The notes under the pieces are model-generated. The model was not told where the DNA came from. It did no database searches and worked only from the letters and a program-made list of their open reading frames with translations. Positions 13,416 to 64,000 of a stretch of 64,000 nucleotides of DNA are shown piece after piece. A program made the translations under genes and the position numbers. Origin of the DNA: a virus (taxonomy: Duplodnaviria; Heunggongvirae; Uroviricota; Caudoviricetes); IMG/VR virus record IMGVR_UViG_3300043219_000435. The stretch is one strand, 5' to 3'. How positions within the stretch are numbered: the stretch's first letter is position 1; the number at the start of each line of letters is the position of its first letter.

Positions 13416-13423
13416 TTAAATAA

Positions 13424-13535: not shown

Positions 13536-13639
13536 ATATAGAAAGTATATAAAAAATAAAGTTGAGTCAATAAAAATATAGACCAGTTAATAAAAACATA
13601 TTACTTTAGTTACTACGGATTAATAATTGGAGTATATAA

Positions 13640-14296: not shown

Positions 14297-14297
14297 T

Positions 14298-15732: not shown

Positions 15733-15755
15733 CAAACTAAAGTAAAGGTGAGTTT

Positions 15756-17702: not shown

Positions 17703-17867
17703 ATGGAAGTACTTATTGGGCCAGTAGCATTTGGAATCAAATATGGCATATGTCCTATATGTGGTTATGATAAAATAGAGTTAACTGATATTGAATGTTA
17801 TAAATGTGATCAGCCTGTACAACCAGTAGAACGGATACTTACAATAGAATTAAAGGATAAGAAATGA
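17703..17867 (+). CDS. small zinc-ribbon protein
   Basis: CPICGY...CYKCDQ; ATGA overlap with tsf. Confidence 0.35.
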   Translation: MEVLIGPVAFGIKYGICPICGYDKIELTDIECYKCDQPVQPVERILTIELKDKK

Positions 17868-19886: not shown

Positions 19887-19912
19887 GGAGCAATAATTTG
19901 CTCCTTTTTTTA
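19887..19912 (+). terminator. rho-independent terminator
   Basis: GGAGCAATAATTTGCTCC hairpin followed by TTTTTTT. Confidence 0.6.
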
Positions 19913-32876: not shown

Positions 32877-33542
32877 CTATTGTTTTTTTAATAATTGATT
32901 ATTGTTTTTTATTGCTTTGAATATATGATTGTTTTTTTCTGTTAAAATTACTTCAGTTCCTTGCTTAAACTCAACATTCTCTTCATCAGGCTCAACCATT
33001 ATATGATGAGTAGTGCCATGATGATCTTGAAATTTTGCCGAAGCCGGATAATTCAACTTTGCTGTACCTAAAGTTATAATAGCAACTTCACCGATAAACG
33101 AATCTTCTGATATTGATTGAGATTCATCATCAGGAATAATTTTATTTAACATGTTTGCACATGTTTTTATTATCGGTACAGAAATTACTATAGCCAGGAT
33201 ACTTGCAATGAATGAAGGAAAAAACTGAAGTAATATGGATTTTGATATTATCTGTATTAAATATCCAGACAAACCAAAAGTTGTTAATGCGAGTATTAAC
33301 AAAATTAGTATTGGTACTTTACCAATACAGAACCAAGTTAATATTCTTGAAAAGAAATCCGGTGTATCAAAATTATCTGGCACATCAGTATCAATATCAA
33401 AATCTGGTAATATTGAATCCAAAAGATTAGAAAATCCGACACCAATTAATAAACCAAAACCTTCCATAAATGATATAGTAATCATTATTCCAATTGCTAC
33501 AGTAAATGGAAGATTCTCGTTTGCTAAAATTAAATCAATCAT
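32877..33542 (-). CDS. NfeD-like membrane protein (flotillin partner)
   Basis: Multi-TM N-terminus plus a C-terminal soluble beta-domain; lies immediately upstream of the flotillin, as in yqiJ-yqiK. Confidence 0.5.
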   Translation of the reverse strand: MIDLILANENLPFTVAIGIMITISFMEGFGLLIGVGFSNLLDSILPDFDIDTDVPDNFDTPDFFSRILTWFCIGKVPILILLILALTTFGLSGYLIQIISKSILLQFFPSFIASILAIVISVPIIKTCANMLNKIIPDDESQSISEDSFIGEVAIITLGTAKLNYPASAKFQDHHGTTHHIMVEPDEENVEFKQGTEVILTEKNNHIFKAIKNNNQLLKKQ

Positions 33543-41181: not shown

Positions 41182-41195
41182 TTTAAATCCTTAAG

Positions 41196-41270
41196 CAGAC
41201 GTGGAAGGAATCGAACCCTCACTAGCGCTGATTTTGGAGATCAGTGTTCTACCGTTTGAACTACACGTCT
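41196..41270 (-). tRNA. tRNA, anticodon CCA (Trp)
   Basis: Minus-sense AGACGTG TA GTTC-AAACGGTA-GAAC A CTGAT-CTCCAAA-ATCAG .. GAGGG-TTCGATT-CCTTC CACGTCT; canonical cloverleaf, no encoded CCA. Confidence 0.7.
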
Positions 41271-41276
41271 ATAATA

Positions 41277-41591
41277 TTAATATTCTATTGTGATTGGGGC
41301 AAAGTCTACGTTCTCTATTTTTCTATCTTTGTCAAGATCTACCTTAGGTCTTTTGTCAAATCTCATAGGAACAATATTTATTTCAATTGGTTGTTGGCCT
41401 TCTATCAAAAATCTCTTGCGTCTTACCTTAAAGTCATTTAGTATATTATTTGTGACACTTTTAATATTACGGTTATCTACAAATGAATTAAATGACACGG
41501 GAACATCGTACCAACATATAAAGCTTTTCATTTCAGAACGATAATATACTTCTCCATCGTCATTTACTTTTACAATTATTCTATATTTCAT
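41277..41591 (-). CDS. MK(Y/T)RI-family small protein
   Basis: MKYRIIVKVNDDGEVYY.. start with RBS AGGAG; the longer track ORF to 41675 would run through the tRNA. Confidence 0.45.
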   Translation of the reverse strand: MKYRIIVKVNDDGEVYYRSEMKSFICWYDVPVSFNSFVDNRNIKSVTNNILNDFKVRRKRFLIEGQQPIEINIVPMRFDKRPKVDLDKDRKIENVDFAPITIEY

Positions 41592-41604
41592 TTTAACTCC
41601 TAAG

Positions 41605-41677
41605 CAGGTGTGACAGGCATCGAACCCGTAACCGTTGGATTTGGAATCCAGTGCTCTGCCAATTGAGCTACACACCT
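41605..41677 (-). tRNA. tRNA, probably anticodon CCA (one anticodon-stem mismatch)
   Basis: Minus-sense AGGTGTG TA GCTC-AATTGGCA-GAGC A CTGGA-TTCCAAA-TCCAA .. ACGGG-TTCGATG-CCTGT CACACCT. Confidence 0.6.
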
Positions 41678-41815: not shown

Positions 41816-42919
41816 TTAAGCCTTTATGTTTATTAATGGAATAACTCGATGTTTTACTTCAACCAATTCTTCCTGTTCTTTCATTACATGGAAAATATCT
41901 TTATATGCAAATGGTGATTCATCAATTGTTCCTTGAATAACTTTTGCTTTAATACCTACCATAGATTCTTTAAAATCATCTAATGATATATTTTCTTTTG
42001 CTTGTCTTCTGCTAAGAATTCTACCGGCACCATGGGAAGATGAATAAAGAGAATCTGGATTTCCTTTACCTTCAACAATAAAAGACCCATCTCTCATATT
42101 CCCAGGTATCACACCTTCCATACCTGCTTCAGCATGTGTTGCACCTTTTCTATGAATCCACAAACCATCTTTAAATGTTGCATGATTATGATTTCTATTA
42201 ATCAATGATCTGAAATTTGCACCACCTTCACAATAATGTTTAATCTCTCTTACAACTCTTTCAAGCATTATCTCTCTATTACGAAGAGCAAACTCAAGAC
42301 AGAAATTAAGATCCATTATATAATTTTCACCTTCAACTGAAGTAACTTCTAAAGAATAATTTCCTTCTCTTGCTTTATTAGAATTTGAAGCAAGTTTCAT
42401 ATAATGTGTAGCAGTTTTATGACCAAGATTTCTAGATCCTGAATGAATAATAATCCAGATATCATCATTCTCATCATATCCTATTTCGATAAAATGATTT
42501 CCACTTCCCAGGGAACCCAATTGTTTTAATCCATTAATATCAAAATTTTCTCGACATGTTTTTGTACATTCAATTGCTTCAGCTTCTTTCCATGTACTTG
42601 AATGATCATTACGATTCATTCCGGTAGGAATTGCTCTATAGATACCATTAAAAATCTTTTCAGTTTGATCTACAATATCGCTCTTTTTAAAAGTGGTTTT
42701 TAAGGCACCTACACCGCAGCCAATATCATAACCAACCCATGCAGGGACAATATGTCCATCAGTGGCTACAACGGCTCCTATGGGTATAGAATAGCCCAAA
42801 TGTGCATCAGGCATCAATGCGCCACGTACAACAAAATCACATTTCATTGCATCATAAAATTGATTCATTGTTTTTGGTTCTATGTATTCAGCAAATACTT
42901 TATGTGGTTTTAATTTCAT
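41816..42919 (-). CDS. rtcB: RNA-splicing ligase RtcB (3'-phosphate/5'-OH RNA ligase)
   Basis: Full-length RtcB fold signatures: ..GCG.. Cys, NRNHNHA, SSSHGAGR, IPGNMRDGSFIVEG. Confidence 0.85.
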   Translation of the reverse strand: MKLKPHKVFAEYIEPKTMNQFYDAMKCDFVVRGALMPDAHLGYSIPIGAVVATDGHIVPAWVGYDIGCGVGALKTTFKKSDIVDQTEKIFNGIYRAIPTGMNRNDHSSTWKEAEAIECTKTCRENFDINGLKQLGSLGSGNHFIEIGYDENDDIWIIIHSGSRNLGHKTATHYMKLASNSNKAREGNYSLEVTSVEGENYIMDLNFCLEFALRNREIMLERVVREIKHYCEGGANFRSLINRNHNHATFKDGLWIHRKGATHAEAGMEGVIPGNMRDGSFIVEGKGNPDSLYSSSHGAGRILSRRQAKENISLDDFKESMVGIKAKVIQGTIDESPFAYKDIFHVMKEQEELVEVKHRVIPLINIKA

Positions 42920-47316: not shown

Positions 47317-49531
<2,215 letters not shown>

Positions 49532-53406: not shown

Positions 53407-53615
53407 TAATTATTACACCATTTTATTTTCCAAGTTGGATCGAAGTTGATAGGATAGAAAAACCATCCATTTTGTATACCATATCCTTCACCTTTCATAT
53501 TTGGATCTGGAACAGCACATGATGAGTGACAATCACCTGGACAGGTGCGTCTATGTTCACAACTATAGCATTCATTCTGTATGGTTCTTGCATCACCTGC
53601 CATAATATTCCTCAA
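53388..53615 (-). CDS. Cys-rich small protein
   Basis: CYSCEHRRTCPGDCHSSC. Confidence 0.35.
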   Translation of the reverse strand: MRNIMAGDARTIQNECYSCEHRRTCPGDCHSSCAVPDPNMKGEGYGIQNGWFFYPINFDPTWKIKWCNNYKNKEA

Positions 53616-54528
53616 TCATATCAATCATTATTTTTTCAATATTATCTCTATCGGGTTCTTCTGGAAAATCTGATTTTTCATAAAGAACTTCAATATCAGC
53701 TTGAAGATCATTTGCCAACTGAAGTAAATCCTCATATTTCCATTTTCCAAATCTAATATCTTTCAATTGATCAGCATCAATTCCAGTACGATCAACAATA
53801 ACTTCACCGGTTTCAAATATTTCTTTAGATTGCTTTAGCAGCCTGATAACATGCATTGCATGTTTAGTATCATAACCTACTTTTAATTCCTGTTTAAGAC
53901 GGTCTACATTACGATTTTTCATGTGAGAGACATAATCATTGTATTCTTGTAATTGCTTCTGATAAAGCTTCTCTGCCTTTACTTGATCATGTATACCAGG
54001 ATTTAAATATTTTTCTGGAATTGATAATATTGCTTTTCCGTGAATTTCAAATTCATCTTTACGTACAGGCTTTACAACGTTCTTATCGAGCCAAGACTTG
54101 TGTCTCTTCAATCGATGCAATTGAGCTTGAGCATAACAAGTATAAGTATTTTTGATTCTTTTTGATATGAATTGATATCGGTTGTCATAGATTTCCATCC
54201 AGATAGAATCACAATAAGTCCAAAATTCAGGAGGTGCAAATAATATATCCAACATATTAGGATTGTTATTAAGCATTAACTTTAAAGCTTTTTGTAATGA
54301 ATAAATTACGTTGTCAGTATCTCGATCTTCGAATTGTTGATAGTCTTTGAACCCCAGGATATATTCTTTGGGAGGTATTGCAATACCTTTATAATCATGA
54401 TCTGATTCGTCACAAAAAGTACCGTATAATCGTGATCCAGTAAGTGTTTTGAAAATACAATTATTAGTTGCTATTTTCTTTTCGTTATCATAGTTTATTA
54501 CATCTTGTTCTGTTTTTAATTCTTTCAT
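53593..54528 (-). CDS. Pol-beta-superfamily nucleotidyltransferase
   Basis: N-terminal LTGSRLYGTFCDESDHDYKGI (hG[GS]..G....D.D minimal NTase motif) plus a helical C-terminal domain. Confidence 0.5.
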   Translation of the reverse strand: MKELKTEQDVINYDNEKKIATNNCIFKTLTGSRLYGTFCDESDHDYKGIAIPPKEYILGFKDYQQFEDRDTDNVIYSLQKALKLMLNNNPNMLDILFAPPEFWTYCDSIWMEIYDNRYQFISKRIKNTYTCYAQAQLHRLKRHKSWLDKNVVKPVRKDEFEIHGKAILSIPEKYLNPGIHDQVKAEKLYQKQLQEYNDYVSHMKNRNVDRLKQELKVGYDTKHAMHVIRLLKQSKEIFETGEVIVDRTGIDADQLKDIRFGKWKYEDLLQLANDLQADIEVLYEKSDFPEEPDRDNIEKIMIDMIEEYYGR

Positions 54529-55070
54529 TTTATACAGTTATCCTTTCTAAAATCTAATATGCATTTGAATTCTCTATCATCAAATAAAAGATTCCATTCT
54601 TCTTTAACATCAATCCACATGTTTAAATAATCACACTGATTTTTAGGTGGCATATATTTACAAGGATCTCTGGCACCCTTTTTTCTATTCTCTGATGCTT
54701 TAACCGCAATCAAATGATTAGGATTTTTTAAATAGTTAGAATATTTTTGTTTCTTTTTTTTATTCCATTCATAAGCACCCGATACATATGCTTCTTTTAA
54801 TGGGACCAAATGGTCAATGTCAAGTTCAGAAGCGTTGTATATAGTATCCCCAGAATAGAAACAAATCCATAAGCCTGTAACAACTTTTCTTCCATCTTCA
54901 GACATGGTAACTTTAGTTGATAAATTTTCTTCTAGCAAAACTTCGTGTCTGGTATTGATTTTATCTTTGTCCATATCTTTCCAACCACCGAATTCTCCAC
55001 GGTTATAACCGTTGCTGAATGCTATTTGGAATAATAATAGTAATGGTATTATATATTTAATATTTTTCAT
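54525..55070 (-). CDS. secreted HNH-type (DUF1524-like) nuclease
   Basis: Signal peptide; DIDHLVPLKEAYVSGAYEWN...NHLIAVKASENRKKG HNH-like core. Confidence 0.45.
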   Translation of the reverse strand: MKNIKYIIPLLLLFQIAFSNGYNRGEFGGWKDMDKDKINTRHEVLLEENLSTKVTMSEDGRKVVTGLWICFYSGDTIYNASELDIDHLVPLKEAYVSGAYEWNKKKKQKYSNYLKNPNHLIAVKASENRKKGARDPCKYMPPKNQCDYLNMWIDVKEEWNLLFDDREFKCILDFRKDNCIK

Positions 55071-55081: not shown

Positions 55082-55612
55082 TTATTTACAATGTATTCTT
55101 TTTAGTTTTTTTATTTTCTTTTTTTCATAACGATCCATACTTAAACCCCACCAACTTTTAATTGATGTCCATTCGTTTAAGTATCCACATTTATTAATTT
55201 CGGGAAGCCATAATGTAGGCTCTCTACTCTTTCTTTCATATGCTAATTTTTTTTTAATAACAATTAAATGTTTTTCATAGTCAAGATAATTTGAAAATTT
55301 ATTTTTCTTTTTAGTATTCCATCTATTACCACCAGATCTCCAAGCTTCTCTTGTAGAAACTAAAGTGATAACTGAAATATTTTTCGGTTCGGTTATAGTA
55401 TCACCACTAAAAAAACATATCCATTTACCGGCTAATATATGTTTATAATCAGTTGATAATGTAATAGGTTCGATACTTCGGTCTATTAAAACTACATCTC
55501 GTATAGTACGTCCATAAGTAGATTCATAAAACATTTTCCATTCATATGATTTGTATGGTATAAGAGAGAATGTGTTGCTGATAAGTATGATAATTAAAAA
55601 GATATATTTCAT
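55082..55612 (-). CDS. secreted paralog of 54525..55070 with a degenerate HNH core
   Basis: Same architecture (GKWICFFSGDTI..), but the catalytic His positions are replaced (VITLVSTREAW). Confidence 0.4.
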   Translation of the reverse strand: MKYIFLIIILISNTFSLIPYKSYEWKMFYESTYGRTIRDVVLIDRSIEPITLSTDYKHILAGKWICFFSGDTITEPKNISVITLVSTREAWRSGGNRWNTKKKNKFSNYLDYEKHLIVIKKKLAYERKSREPTLWLPEINKCGYLNEWTSIKSWWGLSMDRYEKKKIKKLKRIHCK

Positions 55613-55690: not shown

Positions 55691-56101
55691 TTATGAGTTA
55701 GTTAAATTTGCTACTTCTTCTTTTACTTTAGTTACTTCGAGAGCATCGAATTTTTCAAGAAAAGTATTTATTTCATGTAATTTTTTAATTGTATTAAGAG
55801 CAAGTTCTTTATAATAAAACTTGGATTTCTTTTTTGATTTAAAATCTTTAATCAGTGCCTCAAGCATTTCAGGTTGTTGTTTGAATTGTTCAATTGGAAC
55901 GATTGCTTCAATACCTTCGTCTGTCTTAACATGGCCATTAAATGTAGGGTCGTCGAGTAAATCTTTGGTTTTTTCTAAAATTGTCATTTGAGTTGATAAA
56001 TGTCTCTGCTCCATATCTTTATCGTCACAAAATTCTTCGATCGATTTTTCTAGTAATCGAAGTTCGGAGCCATCAAAAATTAATTTGTTTTTCATATTCA
56101 T
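55691..56101 (-). CDS. hypothetical protein
   Basis: ORF. Confidence 0.4.
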   Translation of the reverse strand: MNMKNKLIFDGSELRLLEKSIEEFCDDKDMEQRHLSTQMTILEKTKDLLDDPTFNGHVKTDEGIEAIVPIEQFKQQPEMLEALIKDFKSKKKSKFYYKELALNTIKKLHEINTFLEKFDALEVTKVKEEVANLTNS

Positions 56102-56165
56102 AATACATTCCTTTCGTTTTGGTAGTTATAATATAACATAAAAATTAATAATTGTACTTATTTTT

Positions 56166-56384
56166 TTATGTTTTTTTAAATAAAAACTCAAGTACTCTAG
56201 ACTTATTAATATCAACTTCAGTATTTTGGCCTTTAGGAGCTGAATCTATTACATATTTAACGTATTCTGCTGATGATGAAGTGCTTCCAAATAATTTAGT
56301 ACAGGCATTTAAATACATCCCCAATGTGTGTTTATTTTGATTTTTTAATTTCCCCATTGCCACTAAATCTTTTTTTTCTCTCAT
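56166..56384 (-). CDS. hypothetical protein
   Basis: ORF. Confidence 0.35.
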   Translation of the reverse strand: MREKKDLVAMGKLKNQNKHTLGMYLNACTKLFGSTSSSAEYVKYVIDSAPKGQNTEVDINKSRVLEFLFKKT

Positions 56385-56619
56385 CTTTTTTCTTACCAGT
56401 ATTTAAATTAATGTATTTTATCTTCTTTATTTTCTTAATTAAAGCCAATCTAGATTTCAATTTATAAACTAAAGTTTTTTCATACATTCGAGTTATTATT
56501 TTTAATTCTTTTAACAAATCATTCTTTTCTTTATCTTTTAATTCGTCATCTTTACACCATCTATCATAAAGATCGTTAATAATAACCCATTTCGTTCTAT
56601 CGGATATATAATCAAGCAT
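56332..56619 (-). CDS. basic hypothetical protein
   Basis: K-rich ORF. Confidence 0.35.
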   Translation of the reverse strand: MLDYISDRTKWVIINDLYDRWCKDDELKDKEKNDLLKELKIITRMYEKTLVYKLKSRLALIKKIKKIKYINLNTGKKKDERKKRFSGNGEIKKSK

Positions 56620-56878
56620 CGATATTTAAAACCCTTTCAGGATCTGTATTATTTCTAATACAGTCTATATGTTTTTCTAATTGATAAAGACTGTCCGATT
56701 TTAATAATGTATTTAAATAATCTACAAGAGATTCATTGGTCATACCACCCCAGGACGTAGATAATTCCATTGTAACAATATCATTCTTGTTTACAATTCG
56801 TAACCACCATCCCAAAGTATTACTAAAGCCAAATATCAGCTTATTATCGTTTTTAGTATGACCTTGAAATACAGACAT
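56612..56878 (-). CDS. hypothetical protein
   Basis: ORF. Confidence 0.35.
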   Translation of the reverse strand: MSVFQGHTKNDNKLIFGFSNTLGWWLRIVNKNDIVTMELSTSWGGMTNESLVDYLNTLLKSDSLYQLEKHIDCIRNNTDPERVLNIDA

Positions 56879-57924
56879 TAATTAGTAATACCTAATATGA
56901 ATTCACCTACTGTATTGGCCCACGCAACTCCAATACCTCTTGATAAAGTATAGAAAGCATATACAGCATAACAAGTAAGAAGGAAGGCTGCAGTCTTATA
57001 ACCTAATTTTTTTAACGAAAGGAAAATGAATAATAAGACTACAGTCAATCCTAAGAGCAATATTCGTAGTTCAGCAACACCAGCATCTATTGTTATGGTT
57101 GGTTCTTTTATTAAAGTAAATGCTAATAATGGGACTCCAAGACAAATACATATATCAAATATATTTGATCCTACAGCATTACTTACAGCATCATCATAAT
57201 TACCTTTTTTAGCATCTTTCATACTGATAATTGTATCGGGGACTGAAGTGGCTGCAGCAGCAATAATAACGGCTATAAAGAACGTAGGTATCTCTAAAAT
57301 CTTTGCAATTTCAACTACTGAGAAGGACATGATAAAACAACCTATACCAATTGATACAATTGCTCCAAGTAATAATAACCATGCTTTTTTGGTAGTCATT
57401 CCATTAAAGTCTTCTTCATCATCATCTTCAGAACGCACTTTAGTTGAAATTTTATTATGGATGTATAGAGTTAAAGCATAAAGGATATAAATTCCTATTA
57501 AAACAGCACCCATCCACCATTCTAATTTACCATCTGTTAATATTAATATTAAAGCCAATTCAGCAAGAATAAAGAAAAAACCATCTCTTATAATAACAAC
57601 TTTATTTATTGAAATGTTTTTGAGATTTGGTATAAATTTTAAAGCTGATACAATTACTAAACCAGGAATAATAAATGCATTAAATACACTAGATCCGGCA
57701 GTAGTTCCAATTGCTGCTGCAAATTCCTTTTCACCAAAAATAAACAAGAAGATAATAGTTGTCCATAATTCGGGCATAGAGCTGCCTATAGCGTTTATTG
57801 TGGCACCTTTAATGCCTGGGCCGAGATTTCTTCCAAGATAGCTTGAAGCGTCCTCAAACGGGTCACATGACTTCATTATCCATAAACAACCTACAATTAC
57901 TAATGCTAACCATAAAAATATCAT
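56878..57924 (-). CDS. Ca2+/cation antiporter (CaCA family, YrbG/NCKX-like)
   Basis: 10-TM-like hydropathy with two alpha-repeat signatures, GSSMPEL and GSNIFDI. Confidence 0.65.
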   Translation of the reverse strand: MIFLWLALVIVGCLWIMKSCDPFEDASSYLGRNLGPGIKGATINAIGSSMPELWTTIIFLFIFGEKEFAAAIGTTAGSSVFNAFIIPGLVIVSALKFIPNLKNISINKVVIIRDGFFFILAELALILILTDGKLEWWMGAVLIGIYILYALTLYIHNKISTKVRSEDDDEEDFNGMTTKKAWLLLLGAIVSIGIGCFIMSFSVVEIAKILEIPTFFIAVIIAAAATSVPDTIISMKDAKKGNYDDAVSNAVGSNIFDICICLGVPLLAFTLIKEPTITIDAGVAELRILLLGLTVVLLFIFLSLKKLGYKTAAFLLTCYAVYAFYTLSRGIGVAWANTVGEFILGITN

Positions 57925-57933
57925 TATATCTCC

Positions 57934-58542
57934 TTATTTTATAATTTTCATATTAAAATCATCTTCATTTTCATCATAAGTGATTACACATGGTGATTTT
58001 GGTTTAACTTGCCATTCATCAAGTGTTTTATAATTTGAGTTTCCATCATAAATAGTAACTTCATGATCATCATTAAATGATGGCAATTTTCTTAATTTTT
58101 TAACAAGATCAAAAATATAAATGGCATATGCTTCATAAGCATGAATACTTTCATCGAGATCATGTGTAGAATAAAACTCTTCCATAAAATTAGAGCAATA
58201 TATTTCCCATTCAAATGCAGAACCCATACGAACATTCCAACCAGATAATTTAGCTTCATTACAAATATGAAGAAATGCTTTAAATTGTGCTTGGATAGTA
58301 GGCATTTGAAATATAACATAACATTTTTTCAAAGAATGCGATTTAGGTTCTTCTTCACCATCATATGAAAAACCACAACAAGAAAATTTTGTAGGGATAC
58401 CTATTCGGTGCATCTCATATATAAGAGGTTTCATAGGTCTGTCAATCGAATTCCAAACAGATTTTTCATTACTATCAGCATTTAAAGATTTTAATCTTTT
58501 GCTATAGTTTAAATAATTGGAATCTTCCACTATATTTGTCAT
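57934..58542 (-). CDS. hypothetical protein
   Basis: ORF of 202 aa. Confidence 0.4.
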   Translation of the reverse strand: MTNIVEDSNYLNYSKRLKSLNADSNEKSVWNSIDRPMKPLIYEMHRIGIPTKFSCCGFSYDGEEEPKSHSLKKCYVIFQMPTIQAQFKAFLHICNEAKLSGWNVRMGSAFEWEIYCSNFMEEFYSTHDLDESIHAYEAYAIYIFDLVKKLRKLPSFNDDHEVTIYDGNSNYKTLDEWQVKPKSPCVITYDENEDDFNMKIIK

Positions 58543-58593
58543 ATATTTCCTTTAAATTAGGTATGGGGAAAGGCCATCCCCCACACCTAAATA

Positions 58594-59211
58594 TTATGGA
58601 TTTGTTTGAAATCCAAATGAGTGCAACAGGTCGCCAAGATCTTCATTTGATCCTTGACCTTGTGGGTGGAATTTCCACGCATCATTCTTTTTGTAAATTT
58701 CAAATACTCTCATGAATTTGAATTGACTATAATCTTCAGTAAGATCATACTCAACCAATTTTTCACCACTTGCATCATCAACAATACTAATTTGAGCGTT
58801 AACAGCTTGACCAAGATTCAAACCTGTCTGACCTTCTTTTTCATCAATTGAAATAAAGAAAGCGATTTTTGCTTTTGGTACTGTAGAAAGTTTTGCAACG
58901 ATTTCTTCAACTGAAAGACCGTCAGTTCCACCGTCAAGAACATCACCTGAGTGCATGATTGCACCTTCAGCAATAATTTTCTTGCCATCAGAATTTACAG
59001 TTTCGGTATTATAAAACAATAAATCCTCTGCACATAACATTTTGTCATTTTCATCAAGCATGATTGCAGATAAATCCAAATCAATTGCTTCAGTCATTGC
59101 AGGACTTTTTCCCCAACTTAAAACAGCTTTTACTTTGTCAAGTCCTGGAAGTGCTTTTGTAAGGTCGATTCTTACACCAGTTTGTGCTTTTTGTAAATTA
59201 ATTACAGTCAT
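58594..59211 (-). CDS. TerD-family protein (TerZ/TerE-like)
   Basis: VRIDLTK..LDLSAIMLD...GDVLDGGTDG...KFMRVFEIYKKNDAWKF matches the TerD fold signature. Confidence 0.7.
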   Translation of the reverse strand: MTVINLQKAQTGVRIDLTKALPGLDKVKAVLSWGKSPAMTEAIDLDLSAIMLDENDKMLCAEDLLFYNTETVNSDGKKIIAEGAIMHSGDVLDGGTDGLSVEEIVAKLSTVPKAKIAFFISIDEKEGQTGLNLGQAVNAQISIVDDASGEKLVEYDLTEDYSQFKFMRVFEIYKKNDAWKFHPQGQGSNEDLGDLLHSFGFQTNP

Positions 59212-59263
59212 ATTATTTCCCTTCCTAAATCATTTGAGGCCGAAGCCCCAAACGATAAGTTAA

Positions 59264-59740
59264 TTAAGCTTCTTCTGTGTCTGCAACGTCTTCAGTTGTT
59301 TCTACAGTAGTTTCAGTAACAGTTTCTTCTACAACAGTTTCTTCTGCTTCAACAGCAGGGAGAAGTGCATAAAGTTCGTCAAGAGCAGGATCAATTGATG
59401 TTGCTTTAGCTTTGATCTCTCTAAGAAGAGCTTGTTCGTTGTCATCTAATGAACCATCACCAGAGATTTTGTCAAACAGATATTTTGCTTCGTCTGCATC
59501 AACAACACCTGGAGTTTTTTCATCAGCAAGAACACCATCAGTAATAGCTTTAACAAATAGAGTTTTGAATGATGAATCGAAGTTGCCACTTTCTGAAACA
59601 GCATCATTGAGATCAAAAAGAACATCCATTTCTTCTTTATCAACAATACCATCTGCATAGATAGTAGTTTCGAGTTGTTTTACTTCTTCTGCGTCAATTT
59701 TACCGTCAGCAAGTATATCTTCTTTTAATTTTTGTAACAT
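59264..59740 (-). CDS. terB: TerB-family protein
   Basis: Repeated DG.ID.EE...L acidic helical motifs typical of TerB. Confidence 0.55.
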   Translation of the reverse strand: MLQKLKEDILADGKIDAEEVKQLETTIYADGIVDKEEMDVLFDLNDAVSESGNFDSSFKTLFVKAITDGVLADEKTPGVVDADEAKYLFDKISGDGSLDDNEQALLREIKAKATSIDPALDELYALLPAVEAEETVVEETVTETTVETTEDVADTEEA

Positions 59741-59808
59741 AAGTTACTCCTTTTTCGTTATTAGGTTAAAAGCGCATTTAACCCTGCGCTACAGGTTAAT
59801 TTTTTTGA

Positions 59809-60489
59809 TTAGTTCATCAATCCACGAAGTCTTCCCATAATCCCACCACCGGAATTACTAGAAGATGAATCTTGACTTGGAGTAGAACCGGAACTATAAT
59901 CTTTTGATGCAATAGCTCGTTCCATTTCTGCAATATTATTATGATTTGTAGCAATACCGAGGGCATTGAATTTCCATTCACCATTGTGACGATATACTTC
60001 ACCAAAGAAAAGGGCTTTATTGTCAGCAACAGATTTATCATCACTCAAAGTAAACTGATATAAATCTTTTTTAGAATCTGCATTTGAAAGACGAATCCAT
60101 GCATTTTTAAGATCTTTGAATTTGAAACCACTACTAAAAGTATTCATTATGATAACACATTTATCAACATCAGCAGCTACAGAATCAAAAATAACATCAA
60201 TTTTTTCATTTGGTGCATCAGCTCTTCCACCACCATCCAAATCGTCACCATGATGCTTAACACCTCTACATGAACTATTAAATTTTTGATATGAAACGGT
60301 TTCTTTAACTTTACCATCAGCTTTAACTAATACAATAGAAGCATCAAGATCGATTGTTCCCATTCCTTTTTTAGCCCAACCCATTCCCAACTGAAGTTTC
60401 TTCAAACCATCATGTTTTTTAGTAAGATCAATTCGTTGACCTTTATCTATTTTCTCTAAATTAATTACACTCATATGCACTCCTACCAA
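59809..60489 (-). CDS. terD: TerD tellurite-resistance-family protein
   Basis: QRIDLTK..IDLDASIVL..HGDDLDGGG...IDVIFDSV...FGEVYRHNGEWKFNALG. Confidence 0.8.
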   Translation of the reverse strand: MVGVHMSVINLEKIDKGQRIDLTKKHDGLKKLQLGMGWAKKGMGTIDLDASIVLVKADGKVKETVSYQKFNSSCRGVKHHGDDLDGGGRADAPNEKIDVIFDSVAADVDKCVIIMNTFSSGFKFKDLKNAWIRLSNADSKKDLYQFTLSDDKSVADNKALFFGEVYRHNGEWKFNALGIATNHNNIAEMERAIASKDYSSGSTPSQDSSSSNSGGGIMGRLRGLMN

Positions 60490-60575
60490 TTAAATTTTTA
60501 TTTCCGTTATACCATATTAAGTATTAATTTTTTGTCAGTCAATATATTTTTTAAATATTATTACTTTAGTTGTAA

Positions 60576-60603
60576 ATAAAAAAAAGACACTCAAAAGAGT
60601 GCC
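60576..60603 (-). terminator. rho-independent terminator (minus strand)
   Basis: GGCACTCTTTTGAGTGTC hairpin followed by T8 on the minus strand. Confidence 0.5.
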
Positions 60604-60630
60604 TTATAATCAGACGAATATCATGTACAA

Positions 60631-60713
60631 AGTTTTGATAGGATTTGAACCTATAGTTACTTGGCGTTAACCAAGTAGCCGGTTTATGAGACCAGTGCGT
60701 TTACCAATTTCGC
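60631..60713 (-). ncRNA. tRNA-like element (canonical arm order, CAU anticodon loop, extra variable-arm hairpin, mismatched acceptor)
   Basis: D-arm GCG-AAATTGGTAAA-CGC, anticodon arm CTGGT-CTCATAA-ACCGG, hairpin ACTTGG..CCAAGT, T-arm ATAGG-TTCAAAT-CCTAT; the complementary 5' strand GGTTTTG lies about 35 nt upstream of the D-arm. Confidence 0.4.
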
Positions 60714-60855
60714 TACGATGTAATTGTACATTGCAGTACTGATTAATCAAAACCTGGACTGTAGTTATATAATAATGAAATTATAAAAATTAACTACAGC
60801 CAGGATTTTCAATCATATAAATGGGTAAAAGTCAAAATAAGCGTTTTCTCCCGTT

Positions 60856-60911
60856 GCTCTACCAACTGAGCTACTTGCCCCCGTTATGGGCAAAGATGGA
60901 TTTGAACCACC
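60856..60911 (-). ncRNA. circularly permuted tRNA-like module B (YrlA-type Y-RNA-like)
   Basis: Minus-sense T-arm GGTGG-TTCAAAT-CCATC, acceptor 3' TTTGCCC, loop ATAAC, acceptor 5' GGGCAAG, TA, D-arm GCTC-AGTTGGTA-GAGC; preceded by the GTGTTGCAG..AGATACTTCG box. Confidence 0.5.
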
Positions 60912-61005
60912 GACACACAGCTTTACATACGAAGTATCTTATTCCTGCAACACCATTTAAAACATAAAAAAATTATAGGAAAAAATCAATCAGAGAGAAT
61001 ATCGT

Positions 61006-61061
61006 GCTCTACCAACTGAGCTATTCCCCCATGTTACGGGGAAAGATGGACTCGAACCACC
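61006..61061 (-). ncRNA. circularly permuted tRNA-like module C
   Basis: T-arm GGTGG-TTCGAGT-CCATC, TTTCCCC, G TAACAT, GGGGGAA, TA, GCTC-AGTTGGTA-GAGC; same flanking box. Confidence 0.5.
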
Positions 61062-61218
61062 GGCCACGTCGTTAAAAGCGAAGTAACTCTAATCTGCATC
61101 ACTACAATTTTTTTTATCACTCTCTAATCTTTGATCTACATAATAAAGAACATGATCTCAGAATGATAAAAATCAAATAAATAAATGGGTAAAAATCGTT
61201 AAGAGAATCTATATCGTT

Positions 61219-61275
61219 GCTCTACCAGACTGAGCTATCTCCCCACGTTACGGGGAAAGGTGGATTCGAACCACC
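61219..61275 (-). ncRNA. circularly permuted tRNA-like module D
   Basis: T-arm GGTGG-TTCGAAT-CCACC, TTTCCCC, G TAACGT, GGGGAGA, TA, GCTC-AGTCTGGTA-GAGC; same flanking box. Confidence 0.5.
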
Positions 61276-61381
61276 GACACACGGCTCCTAATGCGAAGTA
61301 ACTCTACACTGCAACACCATTTATTTAATATTTTAAAAATACAATAAAAAGAATGGTAAAAATCAATATAACAAATTTTTT

Positions 61382-61434
61382 TCTCTACCAATTGAGCTAT
61401 ATCCCCCTGGGGGAACAATCGGACTCGAACCGAT
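61382..61434 (-). ncRNA. circularly permuted tRNA-like module E (short loop)
   Basis: T-arm ATCGG-TTCGAGT-CCGAT, TGTTCCC, CCA, GGGGGATA, D-arm GCTC-AATTGGTA-GAGA; variant flanking box. Confidence 0.4.
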
Positions 61435-61541
61435 AACCTTTTGTATTTCAAACAATCGAAGTAAGTCATATTTGCAACACATTCTTTTTATTTTATTCTT
61501 AAAAAATTAGTAGGTAAAAAACGTAATAAGTGGTCTTTTGT

Positions 61542-61611
61542 TTACAATACCGGGATTGAACCAGTAACGTTTGATTAGCTATCAAATGCTCTACCAGTTG
61601 AGCAAATTGTA
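61542..61611 (-). ncRNA. tRNA-like element, canonical order but atypical (A33 in anticodon loop TAGCTAA, terminal acceptor mismatch)
   Basis: D-arm GCTC-AACTGGTA-GAGC, anticodon arm TTTGA-TAGCTAA-TCAAA, T-arm ACTGG-TTCAATC-CCGGT, acceptor GTACAAT/ATTGTAA; preceded by the flanking box. Confidence 0.35.
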
Positions 61612-61797
61612 CGAAGTAACTTATAACTGCAACACTACTAAAAGTTTTAAATTATAATAATCAGGTAAGTATCGAGGATAGTGTCTAGTTTTTTATTTTG
61701 AGAAAAAATTTTTCGAAGTAACTATTCCCTGCAACACTAATTATTATTTTTTATTAATTTCTTATCTATATATAAAGATAATAAAGATCAAAGTTAT

Positions 61798-61833
61798 AGT
61801 CAACCATTATCTTTCAAATGGCTGACTTTTTTA
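61798..61833. terminator. hairpin plus T-run abutting the Ro60 stop codon
   Basis: TAGTCAACCA..TGGCTGACT followed by TTTTTT on the plus strand; orientation relative to a transcript is unclear. Confidence 0.35.
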
Positions 61834-61834
61834 A

Positions 61835-63517
61835 TTATAAATCTACAGCATTTACCATGTCAATAATACCATGCTTCATAGTTTCCATTTCAACTACACT
61901 CTTAAGAAGATTATCACTCCATCCGCTAAGATGCATGTAATTATTATTCTTAGGATCTAACTGAGTAGAACTATCATTTGCTGCCAAGTTAAATTCATAA
62001 ACCTTAATTGACTTATTCACTTTAGTTTGATAAGTTTTAAGATCCTGGAACAAACTTGATCCACCATTATATGATCCGTTAAACTGACAATCAGTGAATA
62101 CGAACATTTGATCAACATGTATATTTCGCTTTGTAATATCTTGCATTACAGAAGCAAAATTTGTTGAATGACCAACTGAAGTACTCATGATCTGTTTAAC
62201 TCGATCAAGAGGATTATGTTTACGTTCATCAACTGCTACTATTTTCTCATGATTACCGAAACCATAAATAATTGATTTATCACAATACTGTTGCGCCAAT
62301 GAACCCATAACAGCACCGATTTCCATATAAGTAACAGATCCTTCTGCAGACAAAAGAGTATTCATAGAAGCTGACAAATCAACAGCAATTACGGTATTAC
62401 CATTCATCTTTGGTACATTCTTACCGGAATGCCATAATGCTTTATTAAGAGCACTTAAATAACGATCCCTGACAGTTCTAGTGTTTTCAGTGCCAGACCC
62501 ACCATATTTAGAATCGAAGGGATCTGTATTTTTATGTCCCCAACCACTCGTATTATATCCAGAGTTTCCACCAATAGCTTTATACGCACTCCAATATCTG
62601 AAAGGGAATTGTTTGCCTTTTTCTACTGCAGTCTCATTGGATAAAAACTGAAGTGCCATTCTATGTGCTTCTTCTGACAAACCACTTTCAATGATGTTAC
62701 GAATATTTCTTAACAAAGCCATATAAGGAAGTTTTTTAGCAAGAATTAATTGTTCCCAATTATCTTTTTTGGCAGCATCAACTTCTTTTTTCACTTCAGT
62801 TTTAGTCTTACCTTTTTTATCAATCTGACCGGCACCTGAAATTTTATTTTCCCAGGTATTTGCTTTCTCAAGAGTACCGTTCATAAATTTCTTCCAAAGC
62901 TCAGCTTGATCAGAATCAATTGGTTTAGGTCTAAGAATTCTGAAAATATCTCTCAATTTAACTTCTTTCTTAGCAGCTTTGTATTTGTCCAACTGATAAG
63001 CATCAAATTTTGAAATAGAATTTTGTAAACCAATTCTCAATTGTTTTGAAAGTTTTTTCTTGATATGTCTAGAACCATGTACAGTTGTTTTTTCTTTACT
63101 GTAATTATAAATCAAGTAAGAGATAATTTCTGTAATATCATCAACACGACAAGTAACTCTTTCAGCAACAGTTTTAACAACTGAAGTATCAACATCTTCT
63201 TTTTCATTTAACTTAGAAACAATTCTTGAAAGTTCCGCAGTCAATACATGAGAAACACTTCTTAGATTAAACTTTTCACGGCTTAATACAGCAAGTTTAG
63301 CAAGAAATACAGGATCTTCTTTACCGACTTTGTCGATAAGTTTATGTAGTTCTTTATCAGATTTGTATCCGCTTTTATAAAATTTATCTTGACCATAGAA
63401 ACACGTTAAAACTCTATCACACAAATCTTGATAGATAGATTTTTCAAATGCTTTTACTCCATCACATGAAGTAGTCATTTTACGTGTTTTTTTCGGAGTG
63501 GTATTAAACTTAGACAT
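61835..63517 (-). CDS. rsr: Ro60/TROVE-domain protein (Rsr orthologue) with a C-terminal vWA/MIDAS domain
   Basis: 560 aa; a helical TROVE-like N-terminal two-thirds and a C-terminal VIAVDLSASM (DxSxS MIDAS)...T...D vWA; adjacent to the tRNA-like RNA cluster, with rtcB in the same genome region. Confidence 0.6.
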   Translation of the reverse strand: MSKFNTTPKKTRKMTTSCDGVKAFEKSIYQDLCDRVLTCFYGQDKFYKSGYKSDKELHKLIDKVGKEDPVFLAKLAVLSREKFNLRSVSHVLTAELSRIVSKLNEKEDVDTSVVKTVAERVTCRVDDITEIISYLIYNYSKEKTTVHGSRHIKKKLSKQLRIGLQNSISKFDAYQLDKYKAAKKEVKLRDIFRILRPKPIDSDQAELWKKFMNGTLEKANTWENKISGAGQIDKKGKTKTEVKKEVDAAKKDNWEQLILAKKLPYMALLRNIRNIIESGLSEEAHRMALQFLSNETAVEKGKQFPFRYWSAYKAIGGNSGYNTSGWGHKNTDPFDSKYGGSGTENTRTVRDRYLSALNKALWHSGKNVPKMNGNTVIAVDLSASMNTLLSAEGSVTYMEIGAVMGSLAQQYCDKSIIYGFGNHEKIVAVDERKHNPLDRVKQIMSTSVGHSTNFASVMQDITKRNIHVDQMFVFTDCQFNGSYNGGSSLFQDLKTYQTKVNKSIKVYEFNLAANDSSTQLDPKNNNYMHLSGWSDNLLKSVVEMETMKHGIIDMVNAVDL

Positions 63518-64000
63518 CGCACAGCTCCTTTTAATTAGTTTTAAACCGACACATTCGGTTTGTTAATATAAGTATAGCAACTTTTATATTAACCGTCAAT
63601 ACTTTTAAGTAACTAATTTCATTTTATATAAATTGGAGTGTAATTACATTAATATTTTCAATAAATTTAAACTTATTATCATAATGATCTATATGCATCA
63701 TTTCATGAATATAGATTTTATCCTTATTAATAATTTTATAATAATGAACCACAACATTGTAGTTATTTTGTAACGCGAAATCTTTTGAATACATGGCTAA
63801 TCCTTAATAGAGATTATATACTAAGTTATTTATTTAACGTTGTCAATAAATTTATAAATATAATATAAGGATGAGACCTGAGAGGCAGAATGAATACTTT
63901 AACTAAAGTAGATTTTAAAGAATTAATAGCACAATTTATAAATTTATACGGACAGAATTTTATATGGTTTATTATAATTTTTATTTCTTTTTTCTTTTTA

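What the first reader, a model, noticed from the sequence alone, without database searches (positions are those of the whole stretch)
56878..60489. Tellurite-resistance Ter proteins (TerD, TerB, TerD-like) together with a Ca2+/cation antiporter
The minus-strand run contains a clear TerD (59809-60489, FGEVYRHNGEWKF), a TerB-like acidic helical protein (59264-59740), a second TerD-family protein (58594-59211) and, two genes on, a CaCA-family antiporter with both alpha-repeat signatures (56878-57924). TerD domains bind Ca2+, and ter clusters are linked to phage-resistance and stress phenotypes. Their co-location with a Ca2+ exchanger suggests a phage-controlled calcium-signalling or ion-homeostasis module. 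It may be used for superinfection exclusion or to counter abortive-infection systems.
Basis: partly seen in the sequence, partly recalled or inferred. Interest (0 to 1): 0.65.

Follow-up and report, generated by a model that had tools for sequence, protein, structure and literature searches.

The report
Phage Ter proteins with calcium antiporter
A probable large marine phage carries two TerD proteins, a TerB-like protein and a calcium/cation antiporter as one gene cluster, and the same pairing recurs in many other marine phages and in bacterial ter clusters, so it is a real, probably host-derived cation-handling module whose function has not been tested.

Summary
All four ORFs exist on the minus strand. 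Both TerD calls are strong (Pfam 9e-39 and 7e-38). The antiporter has two Na_Ca_ex repeats (2.7e-42) and keeps the NCX_Mj ion-site residues. The middle protein is only "TerB-like": it scores below the Pfam threshold, but 24 of 40 relatives hit TerB. The 202-aa gene between TerD2 and the antiporter looks like an unrelated insertion.

The linkage is not chance. This CaCA subfamily lies directly downstream of TerD and/or TerB(-like) genes in 8 of 9 IMG/VR loci and in all 5 cultured marine phage groups carrying it. It also does so in 20 of 80 bacterial loci, where it ends full ter clusters that show no TerC hit. No TerC-like membrane protein is present in the window.

Best reading: a host-derived minimal Ter module with the exchanger as its membrane component. 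It probably controls cytosolic Ca2+ during infection. Both TerD copies have degenerate Ca2+-binding loops (7 of 13 motif positions). No known defence family matches.

Phage TerD genes and phage CaCA genes are each already reported. The linkage between them is not described in the papers I could search. I rate it a new variant of a known kind, of moderate interest.

The parts
59809..60489 (-). TerD paralogue 1 (TerD1 type). The probable true start is ATG 60474. It has a Ser/Gly-rich tail that ends in the conserved peptide GIMGRLRGLMN.
   Evidence: Pfam TerD 9e-39. PDB 2kxt 5e-26. Orthologues are L001 7374-8024 (46% identity) and L002 6138-6782 (34%). The acidic loop is degenerate, GDDLDGGGRADAPNE. 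The C-terminal peptide is shared with L001.
59264..59740 (-). TerB-like acidic helical protein with four DG-x-(I/V)D-x-x-E motifs and an acidic Thr/Glu/Val tail.
   Evidence: Sub-threshold Pfam TerB and DUF533 hits. 24 of 40 relatives hit TerB at E<=0.01, best 3e-8. Homologues are named TerB family in Winogradskyella and Cellulophaga, and one lies inside the Maribacter ter cluster. AF2 pLDDT is 89.7. Fold searches did not retrieve TerB structures.
58594..59211 (-). TerD paralogue 2 (TerD2 type).
   Evidence: Pfam TerD 7e-38. 2kxt 1e-19. Orthologues are L001 8708-9289 and L002 7329-7892 (36% each). The loop is GDVLDGGTDGLSVEE, whereas the orthologues keep GDNLTGDGDGDDE.
57934..58542 (-). 202-aa gene of unknown function lying inside the cluster. 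Probably an unrelated inserted phage gene, not a Ter component.
   Evidence: No Pfam, PHROG, NCBIfam or PADLOC hit. Only 17 homologues were found. Elsewhere they sit next to OMP_b-brl and dCMP-deaminase genes, not Ter or CaCA genes. The gene is absent from L002, where TerD2 directly precedes the antiporter.
56878..57924 (-). CaCA-superfamily cation/Ca2+ exchanger. It is the only polytopic membrane protein in the window.
   Evidence: Pfam Na_Ca_ex x2, 2.7e-42. Full-length alignment to NCX_Mj. Ion-site residues S48 S49 E52 S78 N82 S227 D230 S253 D257 are invariant across 19 phage and host members, and A45, A223 and T226 match NCX_Mj positions. Eight hydrophobic segments, against 3 or fewer for every other ORF.
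56612..56878 (-). 88-aa ORF whose start overlaps the antiporter stop. It may be co-translated. Function unknown.
   Evidence: Coordinates. A weak orthologue sits directly after the antiporter in L001 (34% identity, 4e-13). No family hit.
60584..60605 (-). Terminator-like hairpin with a T-run, separating the upstream tRNA/YrlA-like RNA array from the TerD1 gene. It is the probable upstream boundary of the Ter-CaCA transcription unit.
   Evidence: 9-bp stem, 4 GC pairs, T-rich tail. Sequence.

Best explanation
This is a minimal Ter module carried by a probable jumbo phage and derived from bacterial ter clusters. In it a CaCA exchanger, not TerC, is the membrane component. The exchanger most likely extrudes Ca2+, or a related divalent cation, against an inward Na+ or H+ gradient. 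The TerB-like protein is its closest partner, and the two TerD paralogues are cytosolic beta-sandwich accessory subunits that sense, buffer or regulate.

Expressed during infection, the module would hold cytosolic Ca2+ and envelope homeostasis of the infected marine host within limits that suit a long replication cycle.

Shown here: the family assignments, the intact ion-site residues, the conserved linkage in phages and cells, and the host-like origin.

Inferred: the transported ion and its direction, physical association of TerB/TerD with the exchanger, expression timing, and any benefit to the phage.
For: - **Domains.** Established.
- **Ion site.** 10 of the 12 NCX_Mj ion-coordinating positions (residue list recalled from Liao et al. 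2012) are identical. The other two are conservative changes, T50 to S48 and E213 to D230.
- **Synteny in relatives.** It is conserved in relatives whose antiporters are 79% (L001, 212-kb IMG/VR contig) and 56% (L002, 209 kb) identical.
- **Viral loci.** 8 of 9 IMG/VR CaCA loci carry TerD and/or TerB-like genes directly upstream on the same strand.
- **Cultured marine phage groups.** All 5 with this subfamily show the linkage: D93, D69, 1.084.O and J2-1 with TerD x2-3, and D497/K479 with a bona fide Pfam TerB (1e-10).
- **Bacteria.** The antiporter is the last gene of ter clusters in Maribacter forsetii, Aquimarina longa and contig L004, and no TerC hit is listed in any of the three. 20 of 80 GTDB loci have TerD or TerB-like genes within 10 kb.
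- **TerB-like as closest partner.** TerB-like plus CaCA occur without a detected TerD in L015-L017, and Pfam TerB plus CaCA in the D497 group. TerB-like (76%) and CaCA (79%) are conserved far better than the TerDs (46% and 36%) between the window and L001.
- **No TerC.** No TerC-like multi-pass protein is in the window.
- **Independent association.** TerD x3 arrays lie next to a P-type cation ATPase in gut phage-like contigs.
- **Other membrane-integrity genes.** The window also encodes a flotillin plus YqiJ pair.
Against: - No experiment or expression data exist for this element.
- Both window TerDs match only 7 of 13 positions of the published Ca2+-binding motif, with several acidic residues lost. 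They may not bind Ca2+ in the canonical way.
- The TerB assignment is sub-threshold, and three fold searches did not recover TerB structures.
- 75% of the bacterial members fetched show no ter gene within 10 kb, although many of those contigs are short. The exchanger therefore does not need Ter partners.
- Ion specificity cannot be read from sequence. The protein scores below the YrbG-type model cut-off (TIGR00367, 129.9 against 179.65).
- Promoters were not identified, and the sigma-70 scan was not enriched over shuffles.
- The window contains no phage structural gene, so the phage setting rests on relatives and gene content.
Confidence: 0.5

Rival explanations
1. Anti-defence decoy. Host Ter/TerY-P clusters (TerD, vWA, PP2C phosphatase, Ser/Thr kinase, CaCA) would act as stress- or infection-sensing systems. 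The phage expresses only the sensor and membrane parts, without the signalling triad, to titrate or override that host response, for example by blunting a Ca2+ signal that would trigger abortive infection.
For: - The phage module lacks the vWA, PP2C, kinase and PRTase genes that accompany the same antiporter in bacteria.
- The Maribacter cluster lies next to Dnd genes and a DUF87 protein, a defence-island-like setting.
- The TerDs diverge much faster than the antiporter (36-46% against 79%), as expected under an arms race.
- ter operons reduce phage growth in Enterobacteria (PMC12054061, which also cites Whelan 1995).
Against: - No PADLOC model matches any of the five proteins.
- Fast TerD divergence could equally reflect relaxed constraint.
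- Nothing shows that flavobacterial Ter clusters defend against phage.
- An intact, well-conserved transporter is more than a decoy would need.
Confidence: 0.2
2. Superinfection exclusion. The module reproduces the 'phage inhibition' phenotype of plasmid ter operons, so that an infected cell becomes refractory to competing phages.
For: Insertions in terZ, terC and terD abolish phage inhibition on IncHI2 plasmid R478, and a terC deletion enlarges plaques in Klebsiella (PMC12054061). The module recurs in unrelated lytic marine phages.
Against: - The component most tied to phage inhibition in those studies, TerC, is absent here.
- No mechanism for the inhibition phenotype is known.
- No data exist for these phages.
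Confidence: 0.12
3. The exchanger handles another divalent cation, such as Mn2+ or Zn2+, or works in the uptake direction. In that case the module is a metal-homeostasis cassette rather than a Ca2+ system.
For: In Klebsiella the ter operon is induced by Zn(II) and Mn(II), and terC contributes to resistance to both (PMC12054061). The antiporter falls below the cut-offs of all curated Ca2+ antiporter models. It has Asp rather than Glu in alpha-2, invariant across this subfamily. The TerD acidic loops are degenerate.
Against: All 12 NCX_Mj ion-site positions are identical or conservatively replaced. Characterised CaCA members transport Ca2+ (established knowledge of the superfamily). A P-type ATPase with a Ca2+-ATPase-like domain set is also found next to TerD arrays.
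Confidence: 0.13
4. Passenger genes. The cluster was captured en bloc from a host operon and persists without a specific role in infection, so its co-location only reflects ancestry.
For: The gene order mirrors bacterial clusters. An unrelated gene has been inserted into the cluster. Window TerD2 has lost the canonical loop.
Against: - The module is retained in three lineages that have diverged to 56% antiporter identity.
- It occurs in at least two deep, separate phage CaCA clades infecting different bacterial classes.
- The ion-site residues are invariant.
- Related terD operons are highly transcribed in Bacteroides jumbo phages (PMC12880540).
Confidence: 0.05

Closest known systems
   Same: TerD paralogues, a homologue of the TerB-like protein (52% identity to the Maribacter 126-aa protein) and the same CaCA subfamily (41-43% identity) sit in one co-directional cluster.
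   Different: The phage version lacks the vWA/TerY, PP2C, kinase, PRTase and HAD genes. It has only two TerDs. Its antiporter lacks a ~30-aa cytoplasmic loop insert, and its TerB-like protein has gained an acidic tail.
Classical terZABCDEF operon of IncHI2 plasmids and Klebsiella
   Same: It has TerD-family proteins and a TerB-type protein together with an integral membrane protein. It is linked to phage inhibition and metal stress (PMC12054061).
   Different: The window has no TerC, TerA, TerZ or TerF. The membrane component here is a CaCA exchanger, which belongs to a different superfamily.
TerD(x2-3)-small protein-CaCA and TerB-CaCA clusters in cultured marine phages (Vibrio phages 1.084.O, D93, D69, D497/K479; Pseudoalteromonas phage J2-1)
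   Same: The same antiporter subfamily (34-39% identity) lies directly downstream of TerD or TerB genes on the same strand.
   Different: They differ in phage lineage and host class (Gammaproteobacteria), and their antiporters form a separate deep clade. The small proteins between TerD and CaCA show no detectable similarity to the TerB-like family. Greiner et al. 2018 listed two of these antiporters as 'sodium/calcium symporters' but did not mention Ter genes.
terD-hypothetical-terD operon and Ca2+-translocating P-type ATPase of Bacteroides 'Jug' jumbo phages (PMC12880540)
   Same: These are jumbo phages infecting Bacteroidota, and two terD genes flank a small unannotated gene. That operon is highly transcribed, and the phage carries a Ca2+ exporter acquired from its host.
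   Different: The Jug exporter is a P-type ATPase, not a CaCA exchanger, and the paper does not report it next to terD. I did not test whether the Jug middle gene is related to the TerB-like protein. tblastn of the TerB-like protein against the phage collection found nothing.
NCX_Mj and eukaryotic NCX exchangers regulated by Calx-beta Ca2+-binding domains
   Same: Ten-TM CaCA architecture by full-length alignment, with conserved alpha-repeat ion sites. By analogy only, a Ca2+-binding beta-sandwich (TerD) is associated with the exchanger.
   Different: TerD is a separate polypeptide of a different fold family from Calx-beta. No interaction has been shown. Alpha-2 carries Asp (as I recall for NCKX) rather than Glu.

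Membership tests
TerD family (Pfam PF02342) | Profile match above the curated threshold over the whole domain | tested here: met
   59809-60489: 133.3 bits. 58594-59211: 130.4 bits. The cut-off is 25.3, and both cover about 180 of 187 profile positions.
TerD family (Pfam PF02342) | Sequence homology to solved TerD structures | tested here: met
   2kxt/2kxv at 5e-26 and 1e-19; 3ibz at 1e-24 and 1e-19.
   DLD and GD are kept in both copies. The 13-mer matches only 7 of 13 positions: TerD1 GDDLDGGGRADAPNE with a 2-residue insertion, and TerD2 GDVLDGGTDGLSVEE. The L001 and L002 orthologues of TerD2 and several host TerDs keep the full motif.
TerB family (Pfam PF05099) | Profile match above the curated threshold | tested here: not met
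   17.1 bits, E 0.0068, against a cut-off of 24.4. DUF533 scores similarly at 17.4 bits.
TerB family (Pfam PF05099) | Family-level support: relatives match TerB and share paired DG...E motifs | tested here: met
   24 of 40 aligned relatives hit TerB at E<=0.01, best 3e-8. There are four DG-x-(I/V)D-xx-E motifs with invariant D12 G13 E19 G31 E37 D99 E102. NCBI names homologues 'TerB family'. A profile search of the PDB puts 2h5n (PG_1108) on top, at E 0.01.
TerB family (Pfam PF05099) | TerB fold recovered by structure comparison | tested here: inconclusive
TerB family (Pfam PF05099) | Location within ter gene clusters | tested here: met
   The homologue P0153 lies between vWA genes in the Maribacter ter cluster. 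The family lies upstream of CaCA in 6 of 9 IMG/VR loci and near CaCA in 9 of 80 GTDB loci. A bona fide Pfam TerB occupies the same position in Vibrio phage D497.
CaCA superfamily (Pfam PF01699 Na_Ca_ex) | Two Na_Ca_ex repeats with alpha-1 and alpha-2 signatures carrying the acidic ion-binding residues | tested here: met
   Two stretches, 144.7 bits. GSSMPE (E52) and ATSVPD (D230). 10 of 12 NCX_Mj site residues are identical and 2 are conservative replacements.
CaCA superfamily (Pfam PF01699 Na_Ca_ex) | Cation/Ca2+ exchange activity | not testable with these tools
   This needs a transport assay.
YrbG-type Ca2+/Na+ antiporters (TIGR00367, PRK10734) | Score above the curated cut-off | tested here: not met
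   129.9 against 179.65, and 74.2 against 432. The protein belongs to a separate subfamily that I could find only as unannotated or generically named proteins.
Classical ter operon (terZABCDEF) | Presence of TerC as the integral membrane component | tested here: not met
   The antiporter is the only ORF in the 64 kb with 4 or more hydrophobic segments. No TerC Pfam hit is listed in the bacterial clusters L004-L006 either.
TerY-P triad systems | vWA (TerY) plus PP2C phosphatase plus Ser/Thr kinase | tested here: not met
   The triad is present beside the antiporter in Maribacter and Aquimarina. It is absent from the phage cluster and from the neighbouring genes I scanned.
Catalogued anti-phage defence systems (PADLOC-DB 2.0) | Match to any defence-system protein model | tested here: not met
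   No hit at E<=0.01 for any of the five proteins.

The most novel reading that the evidence does not exclude
TerB and TerD would be trans-acting cation-sensing regulatory subunits of a membrane Ca2+ exporter. That would be a prokaryotic and phage counterpart of the Calx-beta regulation of eukaryotic NCX. The long-unexplained Ter systems would then be, at their core, divalent-cation efflux-control machines. Phages would have captured the minimal core repeatedly, with either a CaCA exchanger or a P-type ATPase, to suppress a Ca2+ signal in the infected cell.
Probability: 0.2. Interest if true: 0.75.

Novelty: new variant of a known kind. Interest (0 to 1): 0.5.

Why it matters
The function of Ter proteins has been unclear since the 1990s. 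Their reported phenotypes include tellurite, colicin, phage and metal resistance.

A stripped-down module, with TerB(-like) plus a CaCA exchanger at its core and optional TerD paralogues, recurs in unrelated marine phages and at the end of bacterial ter clusters that lack TerC. That gives a small, testable system. One can ask whether TerB or TerD binds and regulates a defined transporter, and whether phages manipulate host Ca2+.

Cultured analogues with tractable Vibrio and Pseudoalteromonas hosts already exist.

The finding also adds a second class of phage-borne Ca2+ exporter to the recently reported P-type ATPases of gut jumbo phages.

Tried and rejected
- Megablast of 56000-64000 against INPHARED phages gave no match.
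- Exact-sequence look-ups of the window antiporter and its 100%-identical entry P0001 found nothing on record. The source contig and the sequence beyond base 64000 could therefore not be examined.
- PADLOC gave no hit.
- The 202-aa gene was first considered a possible new Ter component. I rejected this because its homologues lie in other contexts and it is missing from L002.
- I tested whether the ~140-165-aa proteins just upstream of the antiporter in Vibrio and Pseudoalteromonas phages are TerB-like. hhalign probabilities were below 1%.
- tblastn of the TerB-like protein against cultured phages found nothing.
- The sigma-70 promoter scan was not enriched over shuffles, 45 against 36.3 +/- 6.9. 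By eye I found no Bacteroidota-type TAnnTTTG motif upstream of TerD1.
- Three key papers were not held: Anantharaman 2012, Daigle 2015 and Pan 2011 (a search for it, did not turn it up). Statements taken from them are marked as recalled.
- dN/dS was not attempted because the orthologues are too diverged.

Full report
**1. The observation.**
The minus strand carries a tight co-directional run of ORFs with gaps of 68, 52, 51 and 9 nt.

| Coordinates | Length | Call |
|---|---|---|
| 59809-60489 | 226 aa | TerD1 |
| 59264-59740 | 158 aa | TerB-like |
| 58594-59211 | 205 aa | TerD2 |
| 57934-58542 | 202 aa | unknown |
| 56878-57924 | 348 aa | CaCA antiporter |

- Pfam places the first and third proteins in TerD (9e-39 and 7e-38) and the last in Na_Ca_ex with two repeats (2.7e-42).
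- Both TerDs match the solved K. pneumoniae and Streptomyces TerD structures (5e-26 and 1e-19 against 2kxt). They are only 29% identical to each other.
- The 158-aa protein has only sub-threshold hits to TerB (17.1 bits against a cut-off of 24.4) and DUF533.
- TerD1 most likely starts at the ATG at 60474, which is preceded by AGGAG. That start gives MSVINLEK..., parallel to MTVINLQK... in TerD2.
- A terminator-like hairpin at 60605-60584 separates the cluster from an upstream RNA array.

**2. What the replicon is.**
- The window is about 30% GC throughout. It is dense in short ORFs and has no megablast match in cultured phages.
- It encodes RtcB, an NAD-dependent ligase, RNA 2'-phosphotransferase, Sir2-like and NUDIX proteins, Ro60, RlaP, EF-Ts, a flotillin/YqiJ pair and several PHROG families of unknown function.
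- It contains no structural genes.
- The closest relative of the cluster lies on a 211,777-bp IMG/VR contig (L001, antiporter 79% identical). A further relative lies on a 209-kb contig (L002, 56%).
- I treat it as a jumbo phage accessory region. That is an inference, at roughly 85% confidence.
- The closest cellular homologues of the TerB-like protein, and many of those of the antiporter, are marine Flavobacteriaceae. The nearest cellular antiporters in a rough NJ tree, however, are from an unassigned contig and MAGs of other phyla. The host is therefore not established.

**3. The linkage is conserved.**
- L001 has Ro60, TerD, TerB-like, TerD, the 202-aa homologue and CaCA in the same order.
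- L002 has TerD, TerB-like (55% identical), TerD and then CaCA directly, with no 202-aa gene.
- An IMG/VR scan with a 19-sequence CaCA alignment returned 9 loci. Using HMMs I built from the sequences in hand, 8 of them have TerD and/or TerB-like ORFs immediately upstream on the same strand. The exception is a 27%-identical outlier.
- tblastn against cultured phages found 42 records. The 38 marine ones fall into five groups:

| Phage group | Arrangement |
|---|---|
| Vibrio phage D93 group | TerD x3, hypothetical, CaCA |
| Vibrio phage D69 group | TerD x3, hypothetical, CaCA |
| Vibrio phage 1.084.O | TerD x3, hypothetical, CaCA |
| Pseudoalteromonas phage J2-1 | TerD x2, three hypotheticals, CaCA |
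| Vibrio phage D497/K479 group | Pfam TerB (about 1e-10, above threshold), CaCA, no TerD |

- The two distant human-gut 'Bacteriophage sp.' CaCA records I examined (26-30% identity, of four such records) show no Ter neighbours.

**4. The arrangement comes from bacteria.**
- The closest cellular-looking homologue (P0006, 49%) lies in a cluster of TerB, TerD x4, PRTase_3, Na_Ca_ex and vWA-TerF-like x2.
- In Maribacter forsetii the order is TerD x4, vWA, a 126-aa homologue of the TerB-like protein (52% identical), vWA, vWA-TerY_C, PP2C, Ser/Thr kinase and Na_Ca_ex. Dnd genes follow.
- Aquimarina longa is similar and adds HAD and PRTase_3 genes.
- No TerC hit is listed in any of these clusters.
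- In a GTDB scan limited to 80 loci, 20 of 80 have TerD or TerB-like genes within 10 kb. Among the 48 loci with at least 8 kb upstream, 13 do.
- A random 20-kb window should contain a TerD gene about 1% of the time. That figure is my estimate, not a computed value.
- Ter-linked members are scattered over the rough NJ tree. The gammaproteobacterial phage antiporters form a separate deep clade from the window's clade. The linkage is therefore old, or repeatedly re-formed, and phages acquired it more than once.

**5. The components.**

*Antiporter.*
- It aligns over its full length with NCX_Mj.
- The 12 ion-coordinating positions of NCX_Mj (list recalled from Liao et al. 2012) map as follows: A47/T50/S51/E54 to A45/S48/S49/E52; S77/N81 to S78/N82; A206/T209/S210/E213 to A223/T226/S227/D230; S236/D240 to S253/D257.
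- S48, S49, E52, S78, N82, S227, D230, S253 and D257 are invariant in all 19 phage and host sequences aligned.
- The Asp in alpha-2 is a subfamily trait.
- The close phage-type copies in the alignment lack a loop insert of about 30 aa that cellular copies have.
- The protein falls below the cut-offs of all curated Ca2+ antiporter models.
- It is the only polytopic membrane protein in the window, so no TerC is present.

*TerDs.*
- Both keep the DLD strand motif and the GD of the GDN motif.
- Their acidic loops are degenerate, matching 7 of 13 motif positions.
- The TerD1 type has its own conserved variant, HHGDDLxGGGxAxxPNE, in all three phages.
- The TerD2 orthologues in L001 and L002 keep GDNLTGD(G/A)(D/A)GDDE.
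- Between the window and L001 the TerDs are 46% and 36% identical. The TerB-like protein is 76% and the antiporter 79%.

*TerB-like protein.*
- A 40-sequence alignment shows four DG-x-(I/V)D-xx-E motifs.
- 24 of the 40 members hit Pfam TerB, best 3e-8, and 5 hit EF-hand_5.
- The best PDB profile hit is 2h5n at E 0.01.
- A confident AF2 model has seven helices.
- Structure searches returned only generic helical repeats. The top BFVD hit, a 'TerB_like domain' protein, is non-significant at E 0.11.
- Context supports the TerB role, because a bona fide TerB sits in the same position in the D497 phages.

*202-aa protein.* It has 17 homologues, none near Ter or CaCA genes elsewhere. I regard it as an insertion.

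**6. Mechanism.**
The best-supported reading is a host-derived minimal Ter module with the exchanger as its membrane component.
- The pairing of TerB(-like) with CaCA persists without a detected TerD (L015-L017 and the D497 group).
- These two proteins are also similarly conserved. Together this suggests TerB-like is the closest partner, with the TerDs as more variable accessory subunits.
- The known chemistry of CaCA exchangers points to Ca2+ extrusion driven by Na+ or H+. That would be plausible in seawater (about 10 mM Ca2+, my background figure), where an infected, perturbed envelope admits Ca2+.
- An independent hint that TerD arrays go with Ca2+-type pumps comes from two unverified human-gut phage contigs. 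There, TerD x3 adjoins a P-type ATPase with a Ca2+-ATPase-like domain set, and one contig also has TelA.
- The window also carries a flotillin/YqiJ pair, which is consistent with investment in membrane integrity.
- All steps beyond domain identity and linkage are inferred.
- The rivals are an anti-defence decoy of host TerY-P signalling, superinfection exclusion, a different cation, and passenger genes. They are weighed in their own section.

**7. Relation to the literature.**
- Phage TerD genes are common: 39 records matched TerD1.
- Bacteroides 'Jug' jumbo phages have a highly transcribed terD-hypothetical-terD operon and, separately, a Ca2+ P-type ATPase described as new to phages (PMC12880540).
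- Greiner et al. 2018 listed the antiporters of phages 1.084.O and J2-1 as 'sodium/calcium symporters'. Their text contains neither 'TerD' nor 'tellur' (PMC6163359).
- Full-text searches found no paper that joins TerD with a CaCA exchanger.
- I could not read Anantharaman et al. 2012, which may mention such neighbourhoods.

**8. Verdict.**
- The annotation is right and the co-location is a real, recurrent module, not a one-off.
- It is a variant of ter systems with CaCA in place of TerC, carried by phages. The parts are each known, while the linkage itself appears undescribed.
- Function is untested, and the TerD Ca2+ sites are degenerate in this copy.
- Interest is moderate, at 0.5.

Noticed in passing
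window 60600-61760 (minus strand), with Ro60/TROVE+vWA gene at 61835-63517: There is a tandem array of about six units sharing GTGTTGCAG...GTTACTTCG. Each is followed by a T-arm, a 7-bp acceptor-like stem closed by a loop, and a D-arm. This is the permuted-tRNA layout of YrlA-type Y RNAs, and it lies directly downstream of a phage Ro60 gene. Rfam YrlA hits are sub-threshold (25-38 bits against 69). The 144-156-nt 'tRNA' hits are chimeras of neighbouring units. A tRNA-Ser(gct) lies at 61541-61612 and an odd tRNA-like element at 60637-60716.
   Followed up: partly
window 41816-42919, 53593-54528, 19910-20476, 47540-49531, 41195-41677: The window carries an RNA-repair and NAD-related gene set: RtcB ligase, an RlaP nucleotidyltransferase, RNA 2'-phosphotransferase, an NAD-dependent DNA ligase and two tRNA-Trp genes. 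Together with Ro60 and the YrlA-like RNAs, this resembles a phage-borne Rsr/YrlA/RtcB system.
   Followed up: no
window 31122-32867 and 32877-33542 (minus strand): A flotillin (SPFH/Band 7 plus Flot domains) sits next to a YqiJ/NfeD-like inner-membrane protein. This is a second membrane-organisation module on the same element.
   Followed up: no
window 17864-18739 (+): A full-length elongation factor Ts homologue (Pfam EF_TS 7.5e-55) is encoded on what appears to be a phage.
   Followed up: no
L106 (MT836648.1) 3-3658 and L107 (MT840059.1) 2-4495: In unverified human-gut 'Bacteriophage sp.' contigs, TerD x3 arrays lie directly next to a P-type cation ATPase (Cation_ATPase_N/C and E1-E2 domains, DKTGT motif). 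L106 also has TelA. This is a second, unrelated class of cation pump linked to TerD.
   Followed up: partly
window 59809-59900 (TerD1 C-terminus); L001 7374-8024: TerD1-type proteins of the window and L001 end in a conserved peptide, G(I/F)(M/L)GRLRGL(M/I)x, after a Ser/Gly-rich linker, although the proteins are only 46% identical overall. It may be a docking or membrane-targeting peptide. It is absent from the L002 orthologue.
   Followed up: no
window 59264-59360 (C-terminal ~30 residues of the TerB-like protein): An acidic Thr/Glu/Val-rich low-complexity tail (pLDDT about 62) is present in the close long-form relatives (e.g. P0126; the L001 copy is also longer, at 176 aa). It is absent from the 126-aa bacterial homologues.
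   Followed up: no
window 56878-60489 compared with L001 7374-11056: Divergence within the one cluster is very uneven: antiporter 79%, TerB-like 76%, 202-aa protein 51%, TerD1 46% and TerD2 36% identity. The cause of the fast TerD divergence is unexplained; it could be an arms race or relaxed constraint.
   Followed up: partly
window 54525-55070 and 55082-55612 (minus strand): These are two adjacent paralogous small proteins with hydrophobic N-termini. One matches the GmrSD C-terminal nuclease domain (3.6e-7).
   Followed up: no
L005 (Maribacter forsetii) 11102-16733: The bacterial TerD-TerY-P-CaCA cluster is followed by Dnd-like genes (a PAPS-reductase-like gene, an AAA_15/AAA_23 ATPase, DndE and DndB) and a 1740-aa DUF87 protein. 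This is a defence-island-like neighbourhood.
   Followed up: no
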